Positions 42,401 through 48,400 of a stretch of 64,000 bases of DNA are shown here, one piece after another. Within the stretch, counting starts at the first letter, position 1. Each line of letters begins with the position of its first letter. Position numbers: made by a program. Location of the stretch: NCBI RefSeq assembly GCF_057098645.1, contig NZ_CM169472.1. One strand, 5' to 3'.

Positions 42401-45400
42401 TGCATTTCTTTATGAATTAATCCGTAACAAACACGCTTCCCATATAGAAATTTTTGCAAAAATAGTGCATGAAATAAGCTTTTTCTCTACCAATCCGGGA
42501 TATAAATATTCATCAGCACCACAATATTCCACATCACTAAATCTCTCCCCGCCGCCCCGTACCTCTGATAATGGTCTAAAATCATTGAGGCCACTTGCGA
42601 CGACGTTGCTCAATAAGGAAAATTTGGCGTGAATAATATTCAACACCAGTGCAGCATCATCATTACATACTTACACCCGCCGACTACCGCTTTCGATATA
42701 TTGACTCAATTTTCCAGCCTGGTTAAAAATAGCGACCAGCTCAGTCGCAAATATAGTGACTACCCTAACTAAGCAACAATAAGGAATACACTATGACTGT
42801 TCAAACAAGTAAAAATCCGCAGGTCGATATTGCTGAAGATAATGCATTCTTCCCTTCAGAATATTCGCTTAGCCAATATACCAGTCCTGTCTCTGATCTT
42901 GATGGCGTGGACTATCCAAAACCGTATCGCGGTAAACATAAAATTCTGGTGATCGCCGCGGACGAACGTTATTTGCCAACCGATAACGGAAAACTGTTCT
43001 CGACCGGTAACCATCCGATTGAAACGTTGCTGCCGTTGTATCATCTCCATGCTGCAGGTTTCGAATTCGAAGTGGCGACCATTTCCGGTCTGATGACCAA
43101 GTTTGAATACTGGGCTATGCCGCACAAAGATGAAAAAGTAATGCCATTCTTTGAGCAGCATAAATCGTTGTTCCGCAATCCGAAGAAACTCGCGGATGTT
43201 GTCGCCAGCCTCAACGCTGATAGCGAATATGCAGCAATCTTTGTTCCTGGTGGTCATGGCGCACTTATTGGTTTACCTGAAAGCCAGGACGTAGCTGCCG
43301 CTTTACAGTGGGCAATCAAAAATGGGTTTTTTGTTGCCTGAAATTTAAGCTGTTTAAAATCATGATGTTAGAAACACTATTTTTTAACGATGGCGACAAA
43401 ATGGCGGCAGCGTCAAAGAGAGAGCGCCACCTGTCCTGATTTCATTGGATGCGGCTGAACCGGATTTGACTCTTTTGGCGTTGCAATCGAACGAACAAAA
43501 GTTTCATGGGTAACAAAAGTATGGCTGCAGTTAATGTTCTGGCACTGGTTGTAACGCTCTTTGGTCAATGAAGATACCTGAAAACTGCTGCGAGTATGGG
43601 CGGCACTTCCACACAGTGGGCAAATCATCATTTTTCGAGTTCTCCCCATTTTTGCTAAATTCACAATAATGATACCGCATTATTCCATTTTGCAAACTTA
43701 AAAGTTCTCCATTGCGAAGAATCATTCCATTTCGAAATCATCAATCCTCACTTCAAGCTCCAGACTGGTCGTAAAACCATTATCCGGGCTTACAGTATGC
43801 GTCAGAGTCGTAATGGTCCATTCCGCATCATCTATCGGCTGTTTAAAGCCACTGACTTTCACTGGCATTTCCGTGTAGAGATCTGCCCGCCCTTCCGCCA
43901 GTTGTAGCGAGAATGACGCAACGCCACGTTGCAGGCGTTCCCACTGCATTTTCGCTGCCCGTTCAGCGTTGCTCCGGTTGGCATAAGTGCGATTAAGTAC
44001 CAGCACGTTTTCATCCGTCCCCACCAGGTAATCGCCCTGCTTCGCTTCCGGCTCTTTCTTCTGCTTCTTAGTCCTGCGCTTACGCTTCACCGTAGTGCTT
44101 TCTTTCTTCGCGGGTTCGCGGGTATGCAACCAGCTGGCAATTACCCCCGTGTAGGCTCCGCGATCTGCCAGGGTAAAGCGGTGACTGTCGCCGTCCTTGC
44201 GTGTGATAGTGATCACCGGCAGTGGTTTACCAGTGGCGCTTTTGCCCTGTCCCTGCCGGATGAATAACAGATTGCCATTTTTCACCGACGCGATGGCACC
44301 GTACTGGCGCGCCAGCCGCATCAGAAAACTGCCGTCACTCTCATTAGTCTGGTCTATATGCTCTACGAGCTTATCCGACAGGTCTTTACCCAGTGCCATC
44401 TTCAGCTTGTGCCGCGAGGCTATTTCCTTCACCACTTCCCCGACGGTGGTCTTATGCCACGATTTTTCACGGCGGGTATTCAGCGTTTCCCGAAAATCAG
44501 CACTTCGCGCCCGGATAGTCAGGCGGTCCGGTGCGCCAGTGTGTTCAATCTCGTCCACCGTGAATGCCCCTTTCGGGAAAAGCGGCTGCCCCTTCCAACC
44601 CAGCGCCAGCGTAACGACCGCACCACGGCGCGGCAGCACGATTTTTCCGTCGGCGTCGTCCAGCTCCAGATCAAGCTGGTCTGCTTCAAAGCCCCGGTTA
44701 TCCGTCAGCGTCAGCCCCATCAGGCGGTTGTCCAGCACTGTGGTGATATCCCTGCCCTCAATACTGATGCTGAATGCGGGAGTTTTGTTGCCTTTGTTAA
44801 GCAGTTCAGAGCTGAAATTCACGACAGCAGCCCTCCCACCGTTTTACTGATATCGCTTAAGACAGATGTTGCCGTGTCCTGAAGATTATTCAGTTGCGCA
44901 CTGAGATCACCGAACATATCGGACAGGGATTCATCCACGCGTTTGAGCGACAGGGTGAACTCAATCCGGCGCGGCATACCGTCGCGGAAAAACTCCGTTT
45001 TAGTCTGATTCAGTCCCTCAATCACATACATGCCGTAAATCGTGCCGCTGCCTTCAATCAGGGGCCATGCTTTCCCCTGTTCTGCCATCTGCTCCAGTGC
45101 CAGCAACGACAGCCTGCCGCCTGTTATCTCCGGCATAAGAACACCGGAAAGCGTCAGCATGTCGTTGTCCGGTCCCAGAAACTGCGTGGACGGACGACGA
45201 TTTACCCGGCTGTTTGCCGCATGTCGCCAGCTGCGTTGATACTGCAGTTCCTGATACGGAACGGTGCGCAGCATAAACACGTACAATCCCAGCACCATCA
45301 TCATGCGTCGTATCCCCCCTGATCGCTGTAGTTACTCCTGGCTTTTGCCTTCAGCCTGCGTTCACGTTCATCAAGCTGGCGTGCCACCTCCCGCGCAATA

Positions 45401-48400
45401 TCCTGCGCACTTTGTCCTGGCTGCGTCTGAATGATGATCTGCGTCGGTGCCTCAATCCGTTGAACGGGCGGCACAGTGGCTGCGCGACTCACAATTGCTT
45501 CTCCACCTTTCGCGGGAAGTGCCAAAGGGTGCAACGGTGGAAGCTCTGCTGGCGCGGCAGCAACGCCCATCATTCCGGCAACAACGGCAGCCAGTGCAGC
45601 TGTATTTCTCCGGCTGGTCACATTTGCCGGGCCGTTAACAATTTCCGGCCCGTTTTCACCGACGATGCCAAACTGCCCGCGCGGGATATACCCGCCGCTG
45701 TCATACATCCCCGCAAAGCCATATCCCCATGACGGAAAACCACCCGATGGCATCATCACTTTACCGTCTGCATTCACCGTCGCAGGTTGCTGACGCGTCA
45801 CGCTTTCCGGCAGTTTTGCCTTTGCGGCCTCTTTACTGACAATGCCAAGTTTCTCCAGCAACCAGGAAACGCCGGATTTCAGGGAGTCCAGCGGATGCAT
45901 GACCATATTCAGCCCTTCCGCCAGTACCTCTCCGAATCGCCGCCCCATTGCCGCTGCACTCTGCAGTTCGGCAGAGGTCGACTTAACGGGCGTCAGCAGA
46001 TCAGTAAACCAGCCCCACAGCGCCTGTACTTTGTCGCCAATCCACTGGAACACGGGCTTAAGCGGTTCGAATGCTGCACTGACGGGACCTGCCGCCGCTT
46101 TGAATCCTTCCACCACGCCACCAAGAAATGCGGTGATGGGTTGCCAGTATTTCCAGACAACCAGCGCCACGCCCGCCAGTGCAGTAACCACAAGACCTAT
46201 CGGACTGAGTAGAGCACCTAACAGACCAGATACGGCATACAGGGCAACGCGCAGCATCGCCAGTGGACCAGATGCCAGTACTCGCAGCACCGTGCCTGCG
46301 GCGACCAGTCCACCGCGCAGTACCGCCAGAGGATTCATAAACATCACAGCAACAGCACGTAAACCGGATAATCCAGACCGCAAAAGTGCAACCGGCGCAC
46401 CTGCTACAGTTTTCAGGACATTTCCCGTCAGTGATGCCGTGCGGCGCAAAGACGACAACGGCGCAGTAAGTAAACCTGCGGCGTTGCCCGATGAAGCAAG
46501 CCCGCGTCGCAGCAGTGCAAGTGGTGCGCCAGCCAGCCAGGACAACGCGATGCTGGTTCGTGTTACTGCTGCCGTAACGGAAGGTAACGTTTTGATACCC
46601 AGCACAGAGAATCCCAGACGGATCACTGCCAGCGGCCCCAGCACTGCAGCCAGCGCCACCGCTAAGGTGCCGAGGCCTACGGTAACCGCAGCCACAACAG
46701 CCGCTACTTTCATCAGTGTGCCTGTCAGTTCCGGGTTAGCTTCCACCCAGCGGCGCAACGCCCCCGTGATGCTTTTCACCGTGTACAGAATATCCATCAG
46801 CGGCTGGCGCAGCGTTTCGCCCAGGCTGCTGAAGGTGTTCTGCGCTCCGGTTTTAACCAGCAACCACTGCGCAGAAAGTGAGTCCTTGTTAATGTCGGAT
46901 TCTTTCTGCATCGAACCGAGCGCATCATTGCCCGCTGTCAGTTTTAGCTGGCGCTGCAGTTCCGGCAGGTTGTTTGCCAGTTTCGCCGCATCATCGCCAA
47001 ACTCTTTACCAAACAACATGGTCATGGCAGACAGGCGCTTATCCTGCGGCAGTGCGTTCACCTTCTCCAGCACGCGCTGGATGGTTCCCATCGCATCCTT
47101 CGTCATCTGCTTTTCAATCACTTCAGGATTGAGTTTCAGCAGATTCATCCCTTCAAAAAAACTCTTGCTTTGCATGGTGGCAATGGACAATTCACGCACC
47201 ATCGCGTTTGCTGCACTGGCTGCAACCTCCGGCGCAGCGCCCAGTGTCAGGAAGGTGGAACCCAGCGCCGCCGCTTTACGATAATCCAGACGGTCAGCCA
47301 CACCGCCCAGACGTTGCATCACATCAATGATGTCTGCCCCTTTCGACATGGCGTTATCATCCAGATAATTCAGCGCATCACCGAGCTGTTCAATATTGCG
47401 GGTAGGGATTTTGTAGAGCTGGGCGATTTTCCCCAGACTTTCTGACAGTTCATCCGCTGGCAGCTCAAAGGCTGTTGCCGCCTTTGCTGCCGTACTGGCG
47501 AAGGCCAGCAGGTCACGTTTCTGATCTTCCCAGCTGTCGTCAGGGTTTGCGACGTTCATGCGCGCACCACCTTCAACCAGTGCAGCGAAGTCCACCGCAC
47601 CGTTTTCCATCGGCAACTGTTCGCTGGCAGCCTTGATGGCATCCTGCATTTCATAAAAACGTGCAGTGCGGTTGCCATTATCGTCACGCAGACCATTGAC
47701 CTGCTTTGCCACACCTTTCATGGCATCTTCCATGCTGGTATAGCTTTTTACTGCCGCCATCACTGGCGCACCCATTGCCAGCCCTGCAGCCGTGGTGGTG
47801 GCTCCGGCACCTGCAATACGATCACGCACCTCCAGCGAACGGGTATAACTGGCACGCGCTGCATTCATCCTGCGCTGAGCTTCCCCCAGTCGCTTCAGCC
47901 GCGCCTCCTGTTTCGAAAGTTCCTGGTTATAACGTGATGTTTCACGGGCTAAACGGGCAGTTGCTCCCGCATCGTCTTTCGCAGAAATTCCCGCCCGGTA
48001 CAGTTCAGCACGCACAAGCGCCGTCTGCTGCTGCAGCTTTTTCTGGCGTTCTTCCAGGCGCTGAATAGCCAGCCGTTGACGGCCCAGAGCAACAACCTGA
48101 CGTTGCGAAGGCGGCCCCATCGCTCCCAGTTCCTGACTGAGCAAATTTGCACGCTGGCGGGCATAGTTCAGCCTGTCGCCTAATTTCTGATTTTCTGCCT
48201 GCAGCTTTCGGAAGCTGTCCAGACTGCTCCCGGCCTGATCAAGCTGCTTTATTGCATCGCGGGATTTTTTGACAGCAGCAGCCAGTTCTCTTGAACTGGC
48301 CTGCGCAGATCGAAATGGGCGGGTGAGCTTGTCAACCGCATTAAGAATGACCTGCAGACGCAGGTTGTTATCACTCATCGTTGGCCCCGCTTCTCTGAAT

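What the first reader, a model, noticed from the sequence alone, without database searches (positions are those of the whole stretch)
45301..48378. Tape measure protein about 25 percent longer than P2 gpT
T is 1025 aa here against about 815 aa recalled for P2, predicting a proportionally longer tail. It indicates this prophage is a P2 relative rather than P2 itself.
Basis: inference. Interest (0 to 1): 0.15.

Follow-up and report, generated by a model that had tools for sequence, protein, structure and literature searches.

The report
Ordinary long P2-family tape measure gene
This is an intact, already-annotated tail tape measure gene of a very common Fels-2/Wadgaonvirus-type P2-like prophage of E. 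coli; its 1025-residue length is normal for that lineage and probably gives a tail only modestly longer than P2's.

Summary
Window 45301..48378 (minus strand) is an intact 1025-aa ORF. It is a tape measure protein (PF10145, TIGR01760, PHROG 28) in a canonical FI-FII-E/E+E'-T-U-D tail module. P2 gpT is 815 aa, so the ratio is 1.26.

The length is not unusual. The gene is 100% identical to an annotated gene in E. coli RM14721 and 98.8% identical to the 1025-aa TMP of Escherichia phage 500465-1. About 18% of complete E. coli genomes carry a near-full-length copy. In this lineage 1021-1025 aa is the usual length. Across 99 diverse relatives the range is 706-1194 aa, with a median of 877.

Relative to P2, 175 of the 210 extra residues lie in two segments:
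- a hydrophobic array of 21/22-aa repeats (+112);
- a Gly-rich C-proximal region (+63).

"P2 relative, not P2" is right, but the evidence is sequence identity (about 30% to gpT), not length. "Proportionally longer tail" is probably overstated. Six published measurements on P2-like phages give about 0.10 nm per extra residue, which predicts about 154 nm rather than 170 nm. No measurement exists for this phage type.

Side observation: near-identical alleles differ by in-frame indels in the repeat array.

The parts
45301..48378 (-). Gene T: tail tape measure protein, 1025 aa, ATG start at 48378 and stop at 45301-45303
   Evidence: ORF list and translation. PF10145, TIGR01760 and PHROG 28. 100% nucleotide identity to the RefSeq gene for WP_097410372.1 'phage tail tape measure protein' in E. 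coli RM14721.
47809..48378 (-). N-terminal region, aa 1-190: long charged helices (30% charged residues); 28% identical to P2 gpT
   Evidence: BLASTP against P2 aligns aa 4-178. AF2 predicts helices 6-86, 92-128 and 136-189, with pLDDT mostly 86-96 between aa 30 and 160. Composition.
46678..47781 (-). Conserved TMP core, aa 200-567 (TIGR01760 / PF10145); its length is nearly invariant across the family
   Evidence: TIGR01760 matches aa 200-567 over the full profile. PF10145 matches aa 246-457. Core length has median 345 and sd 27 in 99 representatives. AF2 pLDDT is 95-98 for aa 210-500.
46144..46743 (-). Hydrophobic repeat array, aa 546-745: about seven units of 21/22 aa (43-aa super-period) with motif x-P-L-A-x-L-R-x-G-L. 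It is 59% hydrophobic and 1% acidic, and is +112 aa relative to P2 gpT
   Evidence: The offset-43 self-similarity score is 0.84, against a maximum of 0.43 in 2000 shuffles. Hydropathy and composition. Length accounting against P2.
46297..46554 (-). 86-aa block (aa ~609-694, equal to 2 x 43 aa) that is absent from Fels-2 gpT (935 aa). Its exact placement is ambiguous because of the repeats
   Evidence: Alignment A1; accounting gives +86 aa in this segment.
46233..46333 (-). Pair of 35-nt direct repeats 66 nt apart, 74% identical, encoding PLAVLRGGLVAA and PLAMLRVALYAV. This is the site of the -22 aa (1003-aa) and +22 aa (1047-aa) alleles found in other genomes
   Evidence: the repeat finder family D2; indel positions aa 682-690.
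45544..45798 (-). Gly/Pro-rich C-proximal region, aa 861-945, which is +63 aa relative to P2. It is a second indel hotspot (+31, +78 and +114 aa alleles elsewhere)
   Evidence: AF2 pLDDT is below 50 here.
48505..48807 (-). Gene E: tail assembly chaperone, 100 aa
   Evidence: PF10109 Phage_TAC_7, 67.8 bits.
48544..48550 (-). Slippery heptamer T-TTT-TTG for the programmed -1 frameshift that produces E+E'
   Evidence: The heptamer is the same as at the annotated P2 frameshift site. The simulated -1 shift gives a 145-aa product that resembles P2 E+E' (142 aa) through to the C-terminus.
48371..48543 (-). E' extension in the -1 frame; its stop (TGA, ending at 48371) overlaps the T start codon by 8 nt
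   Evidence: The same arrangement is annotated in RM14721 and in phage 500465-1.
44819..45304 (-). gpU tail protein, overlapping the T stop by 4 nt
   Evidence: PF06995 Phage_P2_GpU, 150.5 bits.
43722..44822 (-). gpD baseplate hub / late control D protein
   Evidence: PF05954, 95.5 bits.
48862..49377 (-). FII tail tube protein, 53% identical to P2 FII
   Evidence: PF04985, 201.7 bits; BLASTP.
49387..50559 (-). FI tail sheath protein
   Evidence: PF04984, PF17482 and PF22671.

Best explanation
Gene T encodes the tail tape measure protein of an apparently intact Wadgaonvirus/Fels-2-type member of the Peduoviridae (a P2-like prophage).

By analogy with characterised TMPs, the mechanism is inferred as follows:
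- The protein is kept soluble by the chaperones gpE and gpE+E', the latter made by a -1 frameshift on T-TTT-TTG immediately upstream.
- It is anchored by its C-terminus in the baseplate hub.
- It is enclosed by the polymerising FII tube and FI sheath, and growth stops when the tube reaches its N-terminal end.

Its 1025 aa is the normal length for this lineage, not a peculiarity of this prophage. The 210-aa excess over P2 gpT sits mostly in a hydrophobic array of 21/22-aa repeats (+112) and a Gly-rich C-proximal segment (+63). The N-terminal helices and the TIGR01760 core have P2-like lengths.

The tail is therefore expected to be longer than P2's 135 nm, but less than proportionally: about 150-160 nm rather than about 170 nm.

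Shown: gene identity, gene context, the length, where the extra residues lie, and how common the gene is. Inferred: the assembly mechanism and the tail length.
For: Identity:
- PF10145, TIGR01760 at the same position as in P2 gpT and PHROG 28 over the full length.

Context:
- FI, FII, E, U and D all have their Pfam families in P2 order.
- The conserved frameshift site and the E+E' product are present.

Lineage:
- 98.8% identical to, and the same length as, the TMP of Escherichia phage 500465-1. It is 96% identical to that of Klebsiella phage 4LV2017 and 88.6% to that of Cartapus.
- The late region is 96-97% identical over 94-95% of its length to these phages.

Commonness:
- 962 of 5426 complete E. 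coli genomes hold at least 80% of the gene.
- The 1025-aa cluster P0002 has 9661 member sequences.

Length in context:
- 99 full-length representatives span 706-1194 aa with median 877. The window protein sits at the 86th percentile and P2 in the lower quartile.

Where the excess lies:
-.

Tail length:
- The six TMP-length/tail-length pairs are P2 815 aa/135 nm (PMC7552001); pro147 815/130-131 and P88 935/137-140 (PMC5285337); and KS14 842/140, KS5 920/150 and KL3 1075/160 (PMC3091744).
- The regression slope is 0.097 nm/aa with r=0.90, giving 154 nm for 1025 aa.
Against: No electron micrograph of a phage with this TMP was found. Cartapus could not be visualised (PMC9928086).

The only measured close relative is MLG42 (about 1020 aa), reported with a 234 nm tail but also a 128 nm head for a 31-kb genome. 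That probably reflects a scale error, so the figure cannot be used.

The regression rests on six rough, rounded negative-stain values from four papers. It mixes TMP lineages that are only 25-45% identical.

AF2 gives no confident conformation for the extra segments (pLDDT below 50). Their contribution to length is therefore unknown.

The window ends inside the prophage, so the intactness of the early region, and hence inducibility, is unverified.
Confidence: 0.85

Rival explanations
1. One reading: tail length is strictly proportional to TMP length, so this phage has a tail about 26% longer than P2, about 170 nm.
For: Linear relations between TMP length and tail length come from deletion and duplication experiments in lambda gpH and T4 gp29 (established knowledge) and in TP901-1 (PMC5099701). 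P2 itself has 0.166 nm/aa, which leaves little slack. Lynch et al. state that tail sizes 'correspond to' TMP length in P2-like Burkholderia phages.
Against: Within-study comparisons are sub-proportional. KL3 against KS14 gives a TMP ratio of 1.28 and a tail ratio of 1.14. P88 against pro147 gives 1.15 and 1.06. A fit through the origin has 2.7 times the residual sum of squares of the free fit. The extra residues are hydrophobic or Gly-rich, unlike the charged helical N-terminal ruler-like part.
Confidence: 0.2
2. The extra segments are not part of the ruler. The hydrophobic repeat array and the Gly-rich region serve chaperone binding and/or membrane insertion during DNA injection, so the tail is P2-sized (about 135-140 nm).
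For: 175 of the 210 extra residues lie in those two segments. P88, with 935 aa, has a 137-140 nm tail, indistinguishable from P2's 135 nm. Hydrophobic TMP regions have been linked to chaperone recruitment or membrane insertion in TP901-1 and in siphophages (PMC5099701; PMC11830787). Natural alleles differ by indels that are not multiples of any plausible ring equivalent (-28, -37, -50, -75 aa).
Against: The KS14, KS5 and KL3 series rises monotonically with TMP length. P2's ratio of 0.166 nm/aa implies that essentially the whole chain, including its own hydrophobic segment, is needed to span the tail. It is not known whether the indel alleles are functional.
Confidence: 0.15
3. The long ORF is an artefact: a fusion, a pseudogene or an assembly error that inflates the length.
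For: Some database relatives are fusions, namely the 1107- and 1186-aa read-throughs into gpU and the 1117-aa N-terminal chimera.
Against: The window ORF starts and stops exactly where those of the deposited phages and RefSeq genes do. It aligns end to end without indels to the 1025-aa cluster representative P0002. It is flanked by correctly overlapping E' and U genes.
Confidence: 0.01

Closest known systems
TMP of Escherichia phage 500465-1 (Wadgaonvirus, NC_049342, YP_009949239.1) and the identical RefSeq protein WP_097410372.1 of E. coli RM14721
   Same: Both are 1025 aa. Identity is 98.8% at protein level to the phage TMP and 100% at nucleotide level to the RM14721 gene. The E/E'-T-U-D arrangement and overlaps are the same, and so is the neighbouring tail-fibre invertase.
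   Different: The prophage integration site differs. It lies next to ybjL in RM14721 and next to the smpB/ssrA region in the 500465-1 record, but abuts a truncated hchA here.
Fels-2 gpT (STM2697, 935 aa; Felsduovirus)
   Same: 76% identity in the alignment and collinear from end to end, with the same domain order and C-terminus.
   Different: Fels-2 lacks an 86-aa block, equal to two 43-aa repeat units, in the hydrophobic array, plus 4 aa in the Gly-rich region.
P2 gpT (NP_046782.1, 815 aa; Peduovirus)
   Same: The gene position is the same, TIGR01760 matches at the same residues, and the N-terminus and the KYW...LEKLG block are conserved at 45% identity.
   Different: Overall identity is only about 30%. 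The window protein is 210 aa longer: +112 in the hydrophobic array, +63 in the Gly-rich region, +16 at the C-terminus and +12 in the core.
TMPs of Burkholderia P2-like phages KS14, KS5 and KL3 (842, 920 and 1075 aa)
   Same: They are Peduoviridae TMPs spanning the same length range, with measured tails of 140, 150 and 160 nm (PMC3091744).
   Different: They are distant in sequence (25-42% to P2 gpT according to that paper) and were not compared directly with the window protein.
TP901-1 TMP, the model for repeat-based tape measures
   Same: It has the TIGR01760 family core, internal short repeats, hydrophobic segments, and in-frame deletions that change tail length (PMC5099701).
   Different: It belongs to a siphophage. 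Its repeats are 11/18 aa with aromatic residues, not 21/22-aa Pro-Leu-Ala...Arg units in a hydrophobic segment.

Membership tests
Phage tail tape measure protein (TIGR01760 tape_meas_TP901 / PF10145 PhageMin_Tail) | Match to the family profile above the curated cut-off | tested here: met
   TIGR01760 scores 313.8 bits against a cut-off of 28.8, covering aa 200-567 and profile positions 2-349 of 349. PF10145 scores 67.4 bits against 33.2. PHROG 28 gives E=3e-199.
Phage tail tape measure protein (TIGR01760 tape_meas_TP901 / PF10145 PhageMin_Tail) | The gene lies directly downstream of a tail-chaperone gene pair expressed by a programmed -1 frameshift, and upstream of the baseplate and hub genes | tested here: met
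   E matches PF10109. The T-TTT-TTG site lies at 48550-48544. The E+E' product is 145 aa and its stop overlaps the T start. gpU and gpD follow.
Phage tail tape measure protein (TIGR01760 tape_meas_TP901 / PF10145 PhageMin_Tail) | Long, predominantly alpha-helical protein with hydrophobic segment(s) | tested here: met
   AF2 secondary structure is almost entirely helical up to aa 843. The hydrophobic segment spans aa about 553-745.
Phage tail tape measure protein (TIGR01760 tape_meas_TP901 / PF10145 PhageMin_Tail) | The protein's length sets the tail length (shown by deletions or duplications) | not testable with these tools
   This needs genetics and electron microscopy. Only indirect literature correlations are available.
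Bacteriophage P2 itself (Peduovirus P2 gpT orthologue) | Near-identical sequence and 815-aa length, as in the P2, L-413C, Wphi, fiAA91-ss and pro147 group | tested here: not met
   Peduovirus TMPs are 91-100% identical to P2 gpT and all align over the full 815 aa. The window protein is about 30% identical and 1025 aa.
Wadgaonvirus / Fels-2-type Peduoviridae prophage | High nucleotide identity across the structural module to a classified member | tested here: met
   Window 43400-64000 is 96.7% identical over 94% of its length to Escherichia phage 500465-1, Wadgaonvirus wv5004651. The early region and integrase lie outside the window and were not tested.

The most novel reading that the evidence does not exclude
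The 21/22-aa hydrophobic repeat array may be a recombination hotspot that produces functional tail-length or injection variants within one phage lineage.

Alleles that are otherwise at least 95% identical to the window protein have 1047, 1003, 997, 988, 975, 961, 950 or 924 aa. The 1003-aa allele alone represents a cluster of 1764 sequences. The indel junctions fall on the repeated P-L-A motifs, and the +/-22 aa alleles map to a pair of 35-nt direct repeats 66 nt apart.

If these alleles assemble, they are a ready-made natural series. It could test whether a contractile-tail ruler counts every residue (22 aa is about 0.8 of a tube ring) or whether the hydrophobic segment is exempt from measuring.
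Probability: 0.35. Interest if true: 0.35.

Novelty: already known. Interest (0 to 1): 0.07.

Why it matters
It matters little. The gene is a routinely annotated tape measure protein of one of the commonest P2-like prophage types in Enterobacteriaceae, and its length is the lineage norm.

Two things are useful. First, a caution: in the P2 family, TMP length differences appear to translate into tail length at roughly 0.1 nm per residue, not the 0.15-0.17 nm per residue implied by simple proportionality. Second, most length variation sits in a hydrophobic repeat segment whose role, as ruler, chaperone site or membrane channel, is unresolved.

Tried and rejected
1. Tandem Repeats Finder on the gene found nothing at score 30 or above. 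The repeats are old: units are about 40% identical at DNA level and 26-35% at protein level. They are visible only as protein periodicity and as short, imperfect direct DNA repeats.

2. AF2 with a 62-sequence alignment gave mean pLDDT 71.6. It is confident for the N-terminal helices and the core, but pLDDT is below 50 over aa 558-730 and 879-976. It therefore cannot show how the extra segments pack.

3. Foldseek of the model against the PDB gave no hit at E of 0.001 or better.

4. A PDB sequence search gave only a weak hit (E=0.003) to the monocin TMP FtbJ. That agrees with TMP identity but says nothing about length.

5. A literature search for micrographs of phages carrying this TMP was unproductive. 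Cartapus was not visualised. The MLG42 dimensions are implausible. No measurement was found for 500465-1, 4LV2017 or Fels-2.

6. Regex anchors for measuring the hydrophobic segment across the family were too strict, matching only 17 sequences. I replaced them with MAFFT column anchors.

7. My first homologue query and alignment A1 used 45301-48375 on the minus strand. That range drops the start codon rather than the stop. This shifts nothing except a missing Met in row 1.

8. The '630-715' I first noted for the Fels-2 gap were alignment columns. The corresponding protein residues are about 609-694.
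Full report
**Observation**

The window has an ORF from 48378 (ATG) to 45301 on the minus strand, encoding 1025 aa. The P2 reference record (NC_001895) annotates gene T at 19850..22297, which is 815 aa. 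The excess is 210 aa, or 25.8%.

**What it is**

- The protein matches PF10145 PhageMin_Tail at 67.4 bits against a cut-off of 33.2.
- It matches TIGR01760 tape_meas_TP901 at 313.8 bits against a cut-off of 28.8. The match covers aa 200-567, the same position as in P2 gpT.
- It matches PHROG 28 'tail length tape measure protein' over its full length, with E=3e-199.
- Its neighbours on the same strand are, in P2 order, FI sheath (49387-50559), FII tube (48862-49377), E chaperone (48505-48807), then T, gpU (44819-45304) and gpD (43722-44822). Each has its own Pfam family.
- Gene E contains the P2-type slippery heptamer T-TTT-TTG at 48550-48544. A simulated -1 shift gives a 145-aa E+E' product that resembles P2 E+E' (142 aa) through to the C-terminus. 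Its stop overlaps the T start by 8 nt.

This is a complete, canonical P2-family tail-assembly cassette.

**Which phage**

- T is only about 30% identical to P2 gpT. BLASTP aligns just the N-terminal 175 aa at 28% and a C-proximal block at 45%.
- The tube protein is 53% identical to P2 FII.
- T is 98.8% identical to, and exactly as long as, the TMP of Escherichia phage 500465-1 (Peduoviridae, Wadgaonvirus).
- It is 96% identical to the 1025-aa TMPs of Klebsiella phage 4LV2017 and a series of Klebsiella prophage-derived phages, 88.6% to Escherichia phage Cartapus, and about 70-76% to Fels-2, SopEPhi and RE2010.
- The 20.6 kb of late genes in the window (43400-64000) is 96-97% identical over 94-95% of its length to the same phages.
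- The nucleotide sequence of T is 100% identical to a RefSeq gene annotated 'phage tail tape measure protein' (WP_097410372.1) in E. coli RM14721. There the prophage sits next to ybjL.

So 'a P2 relative rather than P2 itself' is right, but the evidence is sequence divergence, not length.

**How unusual the length is**

It is not unusual.

- 962 of 5426 complete E. coli genomes carry at least 80% of this gene at 90% or greater nucleotide identity.
- In the 5.8-billion-protein collection, the 1025-aa representative P0002 stands for 9661 sequences and a second 1025-aa cluster for 1625.
- Among the 120 best homologues, from E. coli, Klebsiella, Citrobacter, Enterobacter, Lelliottia and Salmonella, the usual length is 1021-1025 aa.
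- In a redundancy-free view, 99 full-length representatives of 50%-identity clusters range from 706 to 1194 aa with a median of 877. The window protein is at the 86th percentile and P2 gpT is in the lower quartile.
- P2-type and 186-type TMPs are uniformly 813-815 aa. Fels-2 and P88 have 935 aa.

**Where the extra residues are**

Against P2 gpT the differences by segment are:

| Segment | Difference |
|---|---|
| N-terminal helices | +4 |
| TIGR01760 core region | +12 |
| Hydrophobic segment, aa 546-745 | +112 |
| Conserved KYW...LEKLG block | +2 |
| Gly/Pro-rich C-proximal region, aa 861-945 | +63 |
| C-terminus | +16 |

A second alignment gives +112 for the hydrophobic segment and +79 for the last 165 aa.

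Against Fels-2 the whole difference is one 86-aa block in the hydrophobic segment plus 4 aa.

The hydrophobic segment is 59% hydrophobic, 1% acidic and 7.5% basic. It is internally periodic: units of 21 and 22 aa, each opening with x-P-L-A-x-L-R-x-G-L, form a 43-aa super-period. The BLOSUM self-score at offset 43 is 0.84, whereas the maximum over all offsets in 2000 shuffles was 0.43. The 86-aa block missing from Fels-2 is exactly two super-periods.

The duplications are old. Units are about 40% identical at DNA level, and Tandem Repeats Finder reports nothing. Family-wide, the core is almost invariant in length (median 345, sd 27). The hydrophobic segment (64-270 aa) and the block after it (33-283 aa) together account for about 62% of the variance in total length.

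**Does the length predict a proportionally longer tail?**

That a TMP sets tail length is established for lambda gpH and T4 gp29 (general knowledge) and for TP901-1 (PMC5099701). A longer tail than P2's is therefore the default expectation. I found no measurement for a phage with this TMP:

- Cartapus could not be visualised (PMC9928086).
- MLG42 (TMP about 1020 aa, 75% identical) is reported with a 234 nm tail but also a 128 nm head for a 31-kb genome. That points to a scale problem (PMC11126057).

For other P2-like phages, combining published micrograph values with TMP lengths read from the records gives six points:

| Phage | TMP (aa) | Tail (nm) | Source |
|---|---|---|---|
| P2 | 815 | 135 | PMC7552001, |
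| pro147 | 815 | 130-131 | PMC5285337, |
| P88 | 935 | 137-140 | PMC5285337, |
| KS14 | 842 | 140 | PMC3091744, |
| KS5 | 920 | 150 | PMC3091744, |
| KL3 | 1075 | 160 | PMC3091744, |

The regression slope is 0.097 nm/aa (r=0.90, n=6), which predicts 154 nm for 1025 aa. Strict proportionality to P2 predicts 170 nm. Both within-study contrasts are sub-proportional, with TMP ratios of 1.28 and 1.15 against tail ratios of 1.14 and 1.06.

These are rough, rounded values from heterogeneous TMP lineages, so I hold the 150-160 nm estimate at about 60% confidence. Strict proportionality and 'no change' remain live alternatives.

AF2 could not help. It is confident for the N-terminal helices and for a compact helical core (aa 200-545, pLDDT 95-98). 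It has pLDDT below 50 in exactly the segments that make this protein longer than P2 gpT. The model has no significant PDB neighbour.

**Mechanism (inferred)**

- gpE and gpE+E' bind the TMP. Hydrophobic TMP regions have been implicated in chaperone recruitment (PMC5099701).
- The TMP C-terminus docks into the hub, as resolved for the monocin TMP (PMC11830787).
- FII and FI polymerise around the TMP until they reach its N-terminal end.
- On infection the TMP is expelled. Its hydrophobic segment is a candidate for membrane insertion.

None of these steps was or could be tested here.

**Side observation**

Proteins at least 95% identical to the window TMP outside the indels come in discrete lengths: 1047, 1003, 997, 988, 975, 961, 950 and 924 aa. 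The 1003-aa form heads a cluster of 1764 sequences. All of these lengths arise from single in-frame indels inside the repeat array, with junctions on the repeated PLA / LA-G motifs.

The +/-22-aa alleles map to a pair of 35-nt direct repeats 66 nt apart, at 46233-46267 and 46299-46333. A second hotspot in the Gly-rich region yields +31, +78 and +114 aa alleles, and one allele carries an exact 45-aa tandem duplication. Whether these alleles are functional is unknown.

**Verdict**

The gene is an ordinary, already-annotated member of a very common lineage.

Noticed in passing
window 42793-43420: The host gene hchA (glyoxalase III) is truncated. Its reading frame matches E. coli hchA up to window position 43324, then runs into the ogr end of the prophage (ogr about 43413-43631, minus strand), giving a 182-aa ORF. 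The match of all 5,393 E. coli genomes with a hit stops at that point. None of the 5,426 complete genomes contains this hchA-prophage junction. The identical T gene in RM14721 lies in a prophage next to ybjL instead.
   Followed up: partly
window 50702-53294: A Cin/Gin-type DNA invertase gene (50702-51268, minus strand) lies next to an apparently invertible tail-fibre segment. The segment is bounded by 27-nt inverted repeats at 51324-51350 and 53268-53294 (78% complementary). It contains an alternative fibre C-terminus (51296-51790, plus strand) and two oppositely oriented tail-fibre assembly genes. P2 itself lacks this; Fels-2 and phage 500465-1 have it.
   Followed up: partly
window 46144-46743 (TMP aa 546-745), compared with database proteins P0003, P0010, P0011, P0013, P0032, P0039, P0040 and P0056: Near-identical TMP alleles in other genomes differ by single in-frame indels in the 21/22-aa repeat array: +22, -22, -28, -37, -50, -64, -75 and -101 aa. 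The junctions fall on the repeated PLA motifs, and the -22 allele is itself common (1764 sequences).
   Followed up: partly
window 45589-45696 (TMP aa about 895-930) and aa 799; database proteins P0001, P0017, P0117, P0116 and P0038: A second length hotspot. The 1139-aa alleles carry a diverged 114-aa duplication of the Gly-rich 'GYIP-GQFGIVGENGPE-VNGP' region. Other alleles carry +78 and +31 aa. One 1070-aa allele has an exact 45-aa tandem duplication.
   Followed up: partly
database proteins P0009 (1186 aa) and P0044-P0052 (1107 aa): Some genomes encode T fused to, or reading through into, gpU, through loss of the stop codon or a frameshift at the T-U overlap. These are probably pseudogenised prophages or sequencing errors, and they inflate apparent TMP lengths in databases.
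   Followed up: no
TMP aa 200-545 (window 46744-47781): AF2 predicts the TIGR01760 core as a compact bundle of short helices with very high confidence (pLDDT 95-98). That is hard to reconcile with a fully extended ruler inside a tube lumen about 4 nm wide. No PDB structure resembles it (best Foldseek E=0.12).
   Followed up: partly
literature: PMC11126057, Table 1 (Yersinia phage vB_YpM_MLG42): The only measured phage with a TMP of about 1020 aa from this lineage is reported with a 128 nm head and a 234 nm tail, despite a 31-kb genome. The tail/head ratio of 1.82 is lower than the 2.1-2.2 of the 186-type phages in the same table. This suggests a magnification error rather than a giant virion.
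   Followed up: no
window 18001-20000, 30001-32000 and 40001-44000: Segments with low G+C (0.40, 0.44 and 0.42-0.45, against about 0.51-0.57 elsewhere). The last covers the yedR, porin (yedS-like) and hchA region just outside the prophage. The first two were not examined.
   Followed up: no
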